DNA of 64,000 nt from Escherichia coli. Its GTDB lineage: Bacteria > Pseudomonadota > Gammaproteobacteria > Enterobacterales > Enterobacteriaceae. The notes beneath the pieces were generated by a model. The model saw nothing but the letters and a program-made list of their open reading frames with translations. It made no database searches and was not told the DNA's origin. This document shows, piece after piece, positions 55,305-55,694 of the stretch. A program made the position numbers and the translations under genes. Each line of letters begins with the position of its first letter. Position 1 is the first letter of the stretch. The stretch is taken from the NCBI RefSeq assembly GCF_003790525.1, contig NZ_CP033633.1. One strand, 5' to 3'.

Positions 55305-55694
55305 TTATCTGAATTTTCGGTGACCTTCAAGTTTTATATCGTTCATTTTATCCAGAGACTCACGTAATGATTCTATATCCCCGTCCTCAACTTTCTTTTT
55401 TGCAATATTGATTTCATGTTGTAGTTTTTTTAACTCTTCCTTATAACTATCTACAGAAACTTTATCATTAACATCTATCTTTTCAGGAATAATATTCATA
55501 GAAGAATCTACAGCTTTATCCATCATTTCAAGAGCATTTAATAGTGATGATTTATCATTGGAAGATTGTAGAATACTCATACTTTTGGCAAGAGACTGCA
55601 TGTTTTTATCCAGGCCAGAAGCCAAAGATACGTTGCTGAGAGATAAAAAAATAGCTAGTACAGCACCTGAGAAAAATACCTTTTGTTTTTTCAT
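55305..55694 (-). CDS. cytochrome b562-like secreted four-helix-bundle protein
   Basis: Signal peptide MKKQKVFFSGAVLAIFLSLSNVSLA; mature start GLDKNMQSL and C-terminal HRKFR parallel CybC ADLEDNMETL and HQKYR from memory; AT-rich. Confidence 0.5.
   Translation of the reverse strand: MKKQKVFFSGAVLAIFLSLSNVSLASGLDKNMQSLAKSMSILQSSNDKSSLLNALEMMDKAVDSSMNIIPEKIDVNDKVSVDSYKEELKKLQHEINIAKKKVEDGDIESLRESLDKMNDIKLEGHRKFR

What the first reader, a model, noticed from the sequence alone, without database searches (positions are those of the whole stretch)
55305..55694. Plasmid-borne cytochrome b562-like protein
An AT-rich gene encodes a secreted ~105-aa helical protein whose mature N-terminus and C-terminal HRKFR resemble cytochrome b562, including Met and His at the expected heme-ligand positions. 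A periplasmic b562 homologue on a plasmid is unusual and could act in electron transfer, heme or metal binding.
Basis: partly seen in the sequence, partly recalled or inferred. Interest (0 to 1): 0.35.

Follow-up and report, generated by a model that had tools for sequence, protein, structure and literature searches.

The report
Plasmid-borne cytochrome b562 family gene
A small gene on this E. coli plasmid encodes a secreted haem-binding four-helix protein of the cytochrome b562 family; public databases already annotate it that way and it is common on plasmids, so it is ordinary, although its nearest relatives sit next to a periplasmic catalase-peroxidase gene, which hints at a role in peroxide defence.

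Summary
Window 55305-55694 (minus strand, 32% GC) encodes a 129-aa precursor with a Sec-type signal peptide and a ~104-aa mature protein. It passes the Pfam Cytochrom_B562 threshold (57 bits against 30). Its AlphaFold model superposes on E. coli cytochrome b562 (256B; TM 0.90, rmsd 1.4 A). Both haem ligands (Met7/His102 = M32/H125) are kept and are invariant in 27 family members.

It is not new or unusual. RefSeq already names this protein "cytochrome b562" (WP_045146805.1). The gene occurs in 152 of 5,426 complete E. coli genomes, and its wider clade is on at least 581 PLSDB plasmids, including pO157 (L7018).

The protein is only 20-22% identical to chromosomal CybC and fails the NCBIfam orthologue cut-off. 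It groups (100/100 bootstraps) with plasmid b562 genes that lie 28-53 nt downstream of katP, a periplasmic catalase-peroxidase. This parallels the published H2O2-induced katY-cybC-cybB operon of Yersinia.

Here the gene is an orphan on a conserved 897-bp segment beside IS1, with no katP in the window. It is under purifying selection (dN/dS about 0.2). The most likely role is a soluble periplasmic electron carrier linked to peroxide defence; this is inferred, not shown. Interest is low.

The parts
55305..55694 (-). CDS of a 129-aa cytochrome b562 family precursor (RefSeq WP_045146805.1, 'cytochrome b562')
   Evidence: ORF. Pfam PF07361 57.1 bits against cut-off 30. PGAP annotation in the 100% identical plasmid pE16-3. 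AF2 model with four helices at 24-44, 48-65, 78-103 and 107-128, pLDDT 84. Fold match to 256B, TM 0.90.
55620..55694 (-). Signal peptide codons (aa 1-25, MKKQKVFFSGAVLAIFLSLSNVSLA; predicted cleavage SLA|SG)
   Evidence: Read directly from the sequence: basic n-region, hydrophobic core, small residues at -3 and -1. It aligns with the CybC signal peptide. pLDDT is below 50 for residues 1-23. No dedicated signal-peptide predictor was available.
55599..55601 (-). Codon of Met32 (mature Met7), the predicted axial haem ligand
   Evidence: Aligned with CybC Met7; invariant in 27 of 27 sequences.
55320..55322 (-). Codon of His125 (mature His100, equivalent to CybC His102), the predicted axial haem ligand
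   Evidence: Aligned with CybC His102; invariant in 27 of 27 sequences.
55703..55706 (-). Shine-Dalgarno AGGA, 8 nt upstream of the ATG
   Evidence: Sequence. The GGA core is invariant in the 78%- and 74%-identical variants (alignment A3).
55718..55774 (-). Candidate promoter region: a perfect TATAAT at 55723-55718 and a scanner hit TTCATA-17-CATAAT at 55774-55746. Unverified.
   Evidence: the number of promoter-like hits is no higher than in shuffles; the region is partly conserved in the 78% variant (GATAAT). No significant Fur or OxyR motif.
55243..55278 (-). Stem-loop 27 nt after the stop codon, followed by a U-rich stretch; likely an intrinsic terminator
   Evidence: Inverted repeat I3. 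RNA fold of the 80-nt downstream region gives -16.2 kcal/mol. The stem is kept in the 78% variant with a compensatory T/A to A/T change. The terminator scanner hit overlaps it.
55130..56026 (.). 897-bp conserved segment carrying only this gene, found with the same ends in different contexts
   Evidence: blastn shows 99.1% identity over exactly this span to the ColV plasmid pAPEC-O2-211A (L002) and to an E. coli chromosome (L004); the flanks differ. No terminal inverted repeats.
54362..55129 (-). IS1 copy abutting the 3' side of the segment (context, not part of the gene)
   Evidence: InsA/InsB ORFs. Annotated as IS1A in pE16-3. blastn boundaries.

Best explanation
The gene encodes a Sec-exported periplasmic haem-b protein of the cytochrome b562 family. 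It is a four-helix bundle that would hold one non-covalent haem between Met32 (helix 1) and His125 (helix 4) and act as a small soluble one-electron carrier. Family membership, fold and ligands are shown here; haem binding itself is inferred. It is not the orthologue of chromosomal CybC. It belongs to a mobile, AT-rich clade whose other members lie immediately downstream of katP, the periplasmic catalase-peroxidase. The most likely physiological setting is therefore periplasmic peroxide defence: reduced b562 would deliver electrons to a peroxidase-type acceptor, possibly drawing them from a membrane b561/quinol donor as the Yersinia katY-cybC-cybB operon suggests. In this window the gene has lost katP. 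It sits as a monocistronic unit with its own ribosome-binding site, an apparent terminator and candidate (unverified) promoter elements on an 897-bp segment that has been shuffled among ColV/ColBM-type plasmids and chromosomes by IS-mediated rearrangement. I put about 0.9 on the identity and molecular mechanism, and about 0.35 on the peroxide-defence role.
For: Identity:
- Pfam PF07361 at 57.1 bits against a cut-off of 30, covering the full profile.
- The best PDB sequence hits are all b562.
- AF2 model pLDDT 84; all top Foldseek PDB hits are b562 or BRIL, and 256B gives TM 0.90, rmsd 1.4 A.
- M7, M33, P45 and H102 equivalents are invariant in 27 sequences. L3, L10, the aromatic at 61, basic 98, aromatic 105 and basic 106 are conserved.

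Functional constraint:
- dN/dS is 0.17-0.23 among the 66-73% identical orphan variants.
- 170 of 171 E. coli records carry at least 80% of the queried gene segment.

Link to peroxide defence:
- A b562 gene lies 28-53 nt downstream of a ~730-738-aa PF00141 catalase-peroxidase in pO157 (L008), L024, L025, L026 and L009, and in three diverged lineages (P0057/L007, P0066/L011-14, P0078/L015).
- The window's clade joins the katP-linked plasmid clade in 100 of 100 bootstraps.
- KatP carries a Sec-type signal peptide.
- Y. pestis katY-cybC-cybB is an operon verified by RT-PCR (PMC2231364).
- In Y. pseudotuberculosis, H2O2 raises katG, cybB and cybC by 6.7-7.5 log2 (bioRxiv 10.64898/2026.03.04.709318).
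- The pO157 homologue L7018 is detected as a protein and is 6.3-fold higher in piglet gut (PMC3686733).
Against: - The window has no katP (tblastn best E=0.58).
- The orphan's upstream region has no significant OxyR- or Fur-like site, unlike the katP upstream regions.
- None of the orphan contexts examined (L002-L006) shares a neighbouring gene with another.
- The physiological role of cytochrome b562 is unknown even in E. coli (PMC3349551), so the role is extrapolated from gene linkage and co-expression in relatives.
- The protein is only 20-22% identical to CybC, scores below the NCBIfam equivalog cut-off (67.9 against 130), has a helix 2-3 loop two residues shorter, and differs at pocket positions (Y101 to G, P46 to E, F65 to L).
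- Haem binding was not and cannot be measured here.
- In the NJ tree the orphan clade is sister to the katP-linked plasmid clade, not nested within it. The wider grouping with the other katP-linked lineages has only 38% support, so a katP-linked ancestor is likely but not proven.
Confidence: 0.7

Rival explanations
1. It is a periplasmic haem buffer or chaperone rather than an electron carrier. KatP is exported unfolded through Sec and must acquire haem b in the periplasm. A small, reversibly haem-binding b562 encoded just downstream could hold and hand over haem. An orphan copy would then act as a general periplasmic haem sink or donor.
For: KatP has a Sec-type signal peptide with no twin-arginine motif (MIKKTLPVLILLALSGSFSTAVA). 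The katP-b562 pairing is tight in many lineages. b562 binds haem non-covalently (established knowledge). Y. pestis CybC rises 3- to 5-fold under iron starvation while KatY falls, so the two are not simply co-regulated (PMC2835676).
Against: The Yersinia operon also contains cybB, a membrane b561, which fits an electron path better than haem delivery. The bis-axial Met/His ligation is strictly conserved, which is typical of electron carriers. There is no direct evidence of haem transfer by any b562.
Confidence: 0.15
2. It is a hitch-hiking remnant. The gene is a leftover of a broken katP-b562 module that is carried passively among IS elements and contributes nothing to this plasmid or host.
For: It is flanked by IS1 and a relaxase pseudogene. 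No neighbour is conserved across contexts. A few alleles are frameshifted or truncated (P0031, P0039, P0042, P0036). The composition is AT-rich and foreign. Between the nearly identical window and ColV alleles dN/dS is about 1.3, but this rests on very few changes.
Against: dN/dS is about 0.2 between diverged orphan variants, and ligands, ribosome-binding site and terminator stem are retained with a compensatory change. The frame is intact in nearly all of 171 E. coli records. The same 897-bp unit is kept in at least three unrelated contexts.
Confidence: 0.12
3. It is an iron- or haem-acquisition accessory of the virulence plasmid, for example a periplasmic haem-binding step co-selected with the neighbouring iron transporter genes and regulated by Fur.
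For: An iron ABC transporter plus MFS cluster lies about 3.5 kb away in the same plasmid region. The gene is typical of ColV/ColBM-type plasmids rich in iron systems. Y. pestis CybC is listed as Fur-associated and increases under iron starvation.
Against: The best Fur-box match upstream is 13 of 19, reached by 76 of 500 shuffles, and it is not positionally conserved in the variants. IS1 copies and a separate gene lie between this gene and the iron transporter cluster. No iron-uptake gene is linked in the other contexts. The paper on pS88 plasmid transcription in serum and urine does not mention a cytochrome among its iron-induced ORFs.
Confidence: 0.05
4. It is a non-haem four-helix bundle with another function (metal binding, protein-protein adaptor) that only resembles b562.
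For: Identity to CybC is low (20-22%). Several pocket residues are substituted (Y101G, P46E, F65L). It scores below the NCBIfam equivalog cut-off.
Against: Both axial ligands and M33/P45 are invariant, and the pocket residues at 3, 10, 61, 98, 105 and 106 are conserved in kind. The full-length Pfam match is above threshold. The fold matches b562 specifically.
Confidence: 0.03

Closest known systems
E. coli soluble cytochrome b562 (CybC; PDB 256B)
   Same: Both have a Sec signal peptide and a ~104-106-aa mature four-helix bundle. Met7 and His102 ligands sit at the same positions, and both end in the H-x-K-(F/Y)-R motif. Predicted structure: TM 0.90, rmsd 1.4 A.
   Different: Only 20-22% identical. 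The helix 2-3 loop is two residues shorter. Pocket substitutions Y101G, P46E and F65L. Below the NCBIfam CybC equivalog cut-off (67.9 against 130 bits). The gene is AT-rich and sits on mobile DNA rather than at the chromosomal cybC locus.
pO157 L7018, the b562 family gene 46 nt downstream of katP (WP_001172748.1)
   Same: Same 129-aa length and the same mobile clade (100/100 bootstrap). 43% identical. Plasmid-borne, and annotated 'cytochrome b562'. The protein is detected in vivo (PMC3686733).
   Different: L7018 is paired with katP, with a GC-rich intercistronic hairpin and an OxyR-like site upstream of katP. The window gene has no katP and has its own upstream region and terminator.
Yersinia katY-cybC-cybB operon (periplasmic catalase-peroxidase, b562, membrane b561)
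   Same: A b562 gene follows a secreted KatG-type enzyme, as in the katP-linked relatives of the window gene. The operon is verified by RT-PCR (PMC2231364) and is strongly induced by H2O2 in Y. pseudotuberculosis.
   Different: It is chromosomal and includes cybB. The Yersinia CybC sequence was not compared here. The window gene has neither partner nearby.

Membership tests
Cytochrome b562 family (Pfam PF07361) | Sequence matches the family profile above the curated threshold over its full length | tested here: met
   57.1 bits against gathering cut-off 30; E=3e-15; profile positions 2-102 of 102
Cytochrome b562 family (Pfam PF07361) | Up-down-up-down four-helix bundle of about 105 residues | tested here: met
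   AF2 model pLDDT 84 with four helices. Foldseek PDB top hits are all b562 or BRIL; 256B gives TM 0.90, rmsd 1.4 A. This is a prediction, not an experimental structure.
Cytochrome b562 family (Pfam PF07361) | Axial haem ligands Met7 (helix 1) and His102 (helix 4) | tested here: met
   M32 and H125 align with them and are invariant in 27 of 27 sequences
Cytochrome b562 family (Pfam PF07361) | N-terminal signal peptide, giving periplasmic location | tested here: met
   An n/h/c-region signal with an SLA|SG site is read from the sequence and aligns with the CybC signal peptide. It is disordered in the model. No dedicated predictor was run and export was not shown.
Cytochrome b562 family (Pfam PF07361) | Binds one non-covalent haem b; reduced alpha band near 562 nm | not testable with these tools
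   Requires the purified protein and spectroscopy
CybC orthologues (NCBIfam NF011632 equivalog) | Score at or above the equivalog cut-off | tested here: not met
   67.9 bits against cut-off 130. It is a family member but not an orthologue of chromosomal CybC.
katP/katY-linked b562 module | Gene lies directly downstream of, and co-oriented with, a secreted KatG-type catalase-peroxidase | tested here: not met
   tblastn of KatP against the whole window gives a best E of 0.58. The upstream neighbour is a relaxase pseudogene.
katP/katY-linked b562 module | Sequence clusters with the katP-linked b562 proteins | tested here: met
   43-47% identity to them against 20-25% to CybC. The joint clade is recovered in 100 of 100 NJ bootstraps.

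The most novel reading that the evidence does not exclude
Mobile b562 proteins, including this orphan, could be the dedicated periplasmic redox partners of secreted catalase-peroxidases. By feeding electrons (quinol to b561 to b562) to KatP/KatY they would turn a catalase into a quinol-driven peroxidase that is effective at low H2O2. That would give cytochrome b562, a heavily studied model protein with no known physiological role, its first function. The orphan copies on ColV/ColBM-type plasmids would then extend this capacity to whatever periplasmic peroxidase the host has.
Probability: 0.3. Interest if true: 0.45.

Novelty: already known. Interest (0 to 1): 0.15.

Why it matters
For this window it matters little. 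The gene is correctly recognisable, already annotated, widespread, and one of many cargo genes on a mosaic E. coli plasmid. The useful by-product concerns the family. The physiological role of cytochrome b562 is still described as unknown (PMC3349551). The recurrent katP-b562 pairing seen here, together with the published H2O2-induced katY-cybC-cybB operon of Yersinia, gives a concrete and cheap hypothesis to test: b562 as electron donor, or as haem donor, to periplasmic catalase-peroxidase.

Tried and rejected
1. Remnant of katP upstream of the gene: none. tblastn of KatP against the window gave nothing, and blastn homology to katP-linked loci does not extend beyond the CDS.
2. Fur box or OxyR site upstream of the orphan: best matches of 13/19 and 13/20 are no better than shuffles (76/500 and 65/300) and are not conserved in the variants.
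3. Discrete transposable cassette: the 897-bp segment has the same ends in three contexts, but there are no terminal inverted or direct repeats. The shared ends are best explained as inherited junctions.
4. Conserved neighbour among orphan contexts (ColV plasmid, two chromosomal islands, an IncF plasmid, a Salmonella plasmid): none. The Salmonella copy lies 1.7 kb from sodC, but divergently and only in that plasmid type.
5. pS88 ColV plasmid transcriptome paper: it does not mention a cytochrome or b562 gene.
6. Word-indexed protein search: it found only relatives at 70% identity or more from E. coli and Klebsiella. The exhaustive representative search was needed to reach the 26-45% relatives.
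7. Literature search for katP together with b562: only one relevant paper, which lists the two proteins separately. I found no paper proposing a functional link.

Full report
**Observation**

The ORF lister finds a minus-strand ORF ending at 55305. The biologically sensible start is the ATG at 55694, which has AGGA 8 nt upstream.

The CDS is 32% GC and lies in a roughly 700-bp trough of about 30% GC between flanks of 53-57% GC. The product is 129 aa. It begins with a typical signal peptide (MKKQK, a hydrophobic core, then SLA|SG), which leaves a 104-aa mature protein. Met is at mature position 7 and His is five residues from the C-terminus.

**What it is**

- Pfam places it in Cytochrom_B562 (PF07361) at 57.1 bits against a gathering score of 30, covering the whole profile.
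- A sequence search of the PDB returns essentially only cytochrome b562 entries (20 of 21 matches; the last, at E=2.7, is a designed protein). The alignment runs from the signal peptide to the last residue.
- An AlphaFold2 model built on a 26-sequence alignment has pLDDT 84, with four helices at 24-44, 48-65, 78-103 and 107-128.
- In a Foldseek search of the PDB all top hits are b562 or its BRIL fusions. 256B gives target-normalised TM 0.90 and rmsd 1.4 A over 104 columns.
- Mapped onto CybC numbering, M7, M33, P45 and H102 are invariant in 27 family sequences. L3, L10, the aromatic at 61, the basic residue at 98, the aromatic at 105 and the basic residue at 106 are conserved in kind. Y101, P46 and F65 are substituted by G, E and L.

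Haem binding itself cannot be tested in silico.

**It is not the CybC orthologue**

Identity to E. coli CybC is 20-22%. The NCBIfam CybC equivalog model scores 67.9 bits against a cut-off of 130. An exhaustive HMMER search of 1.84 billion representatives finds only 29 proteins at E<=1e-3. The nearest full-length one outside the E. coli/Klebsiella group is 45% identical, and the rest are 26-35% identical.

**It is not new or rare**

- RefSeq already names this protein "cytochrome b562" (WP_045146805.1).
- The 511-bp gene region occurs on 91 PLSDB plasmids, all of them conjugative and mostly from E. coli of poultry or humans, including ColV plasmids such as pAPEC-O2-211A-ColV.
- It is in 152 of 5,426 complete E. 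coli genomes, at 128 plasmid and 47 chromosomal places. A second, 78%-identical variant lies in chromosomal islands.
- A tblastn search with the 45%-identical relative finds the wider clade on 581 PLSDB plasmids, among them the ~92-kb pO157 plasmids of E. coli O157:H7.
- Other b562-family genes were found beside transfer genes of conjugative elements.

**Local anatomy**

The window matches the chicken E. coli plasmid pE16-3 (IncK2/Z with colicin B/M genes) at 99.97% over window 43000-63807, and with some rearrangement further upstream.

The gene sits on an 897-bp segment (55130-56026). That segment recurs at 99% identity, with the same ends but different flanks, in a ColV plasmid and in a chromosome. 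It has no terminal repeats. On the 3' side it abuts an IS1 copy (54362-55129). On the 5' side lies a fragment of a MobP-type relaxase (56079-57665; NCBIfam TraI_MobP at 170 bits against cut-off 250).

A stem-loop follows the stop codon (arms 55243-55257 and 55264-55278). It is kept in the 78% variant with a compensatory change, and a U-rich stretch follows it. Upstream there are a perfect TATAAT and a weaker scanner hit, but promoter-like hits are no more frequent than in shuffled sequence. No Fur or OxyR site stands out. The unit appears to be monocistronic.

**Is it functional?**

Between the diverged orphan variants (66-73% amino-acid identity) dN/dS is 0.17-0.23. The ligands, ribosome-binding site and terminator stem are all retained. 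This argues for a selected protein product rather than a decaying remnant, although a few frameshifted alleles exist.

**Functional lead from relatives**

The nearest relative outside the E. coli/Klebsiella group (P0057, 45% identical) lies 38 nt downstream of a 737-aa PF00141 peroxidase. The same arrangement appears in several other places:

- on pO157, where katP is followed after 46 nt by the b562 gene historically called L7018;
- on every one of the four further katP/katG-bearing plasmids I examined;
- in two much more diverged lineages, P0066 (28% identical, seen in many contigs) and P0078 (24-26% identical).

KatP carries a Sec-type signal peptide, so enzyme and cytochrome share the periplasm.

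In a neighbour-joining tree the window's orphan clade and the katP-linked plasmid clade form one group in 100 of 100 bootstraps. The orphans are sister to the linked genes rather than nested among them, and the deeper join to the other linked lineages has only 38% support.

Five of six katP-b562 spacers contain a GC-rich hairpin of 8-10 bp whose sequence differs between lineages. The katP upstream regions of two lineages carry an OxyR-like site (15 of 20 specified positions; reached by 1 of 300 shuffles), which the orphan lacks.

**Published support**

- In Y. pestis, katY-cybC-cybB is an operon verified by RT-PCR (PMC2231364).
- In Y. pseudotuberculosis, H2O2 raises katG, cybB and cybC by 6.7-7.5 log2 (bioRxiv 10.64898/2026.03.04.709318).
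- The pO157 protein L7018 is detected by proteomics and is 6.3-fold higher in the piglet gut (PMC3686733).
- Y. pestis CybC rises under iron starvation while KatY falls (PMC2835676).
- The physiological function of E. coli b562 is still described as unknown (PMC3349551).
- I found no paper that links katP and its downstream b562 functionally.

**Mechanism**

Shown here: family membership, fold, ligand conservation, export signal, purifying selection, and the linkage of relatives to katP.

Inferred: the protein binds one haem b between Met32 and His125 and shuttles single electrons in the periplasm.

The best-supported physiological setting is peroxide defence. Reduced b562 would donate electrons to compound I/II of a secreted catalase-peroxidase. 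The electrons may come from a membrane b561 and the quinol pool, as the Yersinia gene order suggests. From general knowledge, the b562 potential is far below that of peroxidase intermediates, and quinol-driven periplasmic peroxidase activity has a precedent in E. coli cytochrome c peroxidase. These points come from memory and were not tested here.

In this window the partner is absent, so the orphan must work with host components or in a more general way. I put about 0.9 on the molecular identity and about 0.35 on this role. The rivals, with their evidence given in the dedicated fields, are:

- a periplasmic haem buffer or chaperone for Sec-exported KatP (about 0.15);
- a passive remnant (about 0.12);
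- an iron- or haem-uptake accessory (about 0.05);
- a non-haem bundle (about 0.03).

**Verdict**

The observation and the core interpretation are correct. However, the feature is an already annotated, widespread member of a known family, and the rarity claim is wrong. Interest is low (0.15). The only point of wider interest is the family-level katP-b562 association. It makes the old question of what cytochrome b562 is for experimentally approachable.

Noticed in passing
L008:5955-6000, L007:7963-8000, L011:3948-4000, L025:4732-4775, L026:4755-4800: The short spacer between katP and the downstream b562 gene contains a GC-rich hairpin (8-10 bp stem, about -16 to -19 kcal/mol for the spacer) in five of six lineages. 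The stem sequences differ between lineages, and no T-run follows; the b562 ribosome-binding site comes next. It may be an intercistronic mRNA-stabilising or processing element that sets the katP:b562 ratio. L015 lacks it.
   Followed up: partly
L008:3647-3683 and L007:5650-5686 (about 100 nt upstream of katP): There is an OxyR-consensus-like site (15 of 20 specified positions; reached by 1 of 300 shuffles in each locus) at the same distance upstream of katP in two diverged lineages. Nothing comparable lies upstream of the orphan b562 in the window.
   Followed up: partly
window 53332-54195 (-): An AT-rich 287-aa ORF with an N-terminal signal peptide belongs to the endonuclease/exonuclease/phosphatase family (Pfam PF03372, 62 bits). 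It sits between two IS1 copies, 1.1 kb from the b562 gene. It is a possible secreted nuclease or phosphatase, annotated only generically in pE16-3.
   Followed up: partly
window 56079-57665 (-): A 528-aa ORF matches only the C-terminal two thirds of the TraI/MobA(P) relaxase model (profile positions 179-496 of 502; 170 bits against cut-off 250) and is not listed as a gene in pE16-3. It is probably a relaxase pseudogene. Window 55891-56512 is also repeated at a second site in the ColV plasmid locus L002 (21448-22069).
   Followed up: partly
window ~47800-51860 (+), 57751-58394 (+): By correspondence with pE16-3, an iron ABC transporter (substrate-binding protein, permease, ATPase) plus an MFS transporter lie upstream of the IS1/EEP/b562 patch. 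A vapBC toxin-antitoxin pair lies just beyond the relaxase fragment.
   Followed up: no
L018:4001-4384; L016:4001-4390: Other b562-family genes (26-30% identical to the query) are cargo of conjugative elements. One lies between the SLT/traM end of an F-type transfer region and the psiAB leading region. Another lies near a TraG_N gene. b562 genes seem to be recurrent plasmid passengers.
   Followed up: no
L010:3827-6390 (Salmonella plasmid pCFSAN024229): The Salmonella plasmid copy of the mobile b562 clade (45% identical to the query) lies 1.7 kb from a periplasmic Cu,Zn superoxide dismutase gene (sodC), in divergent orientation, next to AraC-type and ANR regulators. This is another periplasmic oxidative-stress neighbour. 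The unannotated 1.7-kb gap was not examined.
   Followed up: no
window 1-38977 against NZ_CP119729.1: The window is not fully collinear with its best-matching record pE16-3. Window 7919-31928 maps to record positions offset by 7.9 kb, and a further 5.6 kb of the record (locus L017:24013-29644, corresponding to the annotated TnAs1 Tn3-family transposase, resolvase and part of a chemotaxis-receptor gene) is skipped near window 31916-31928. The source plasmid is therefore a rearranged relative.
   Followed up: partly
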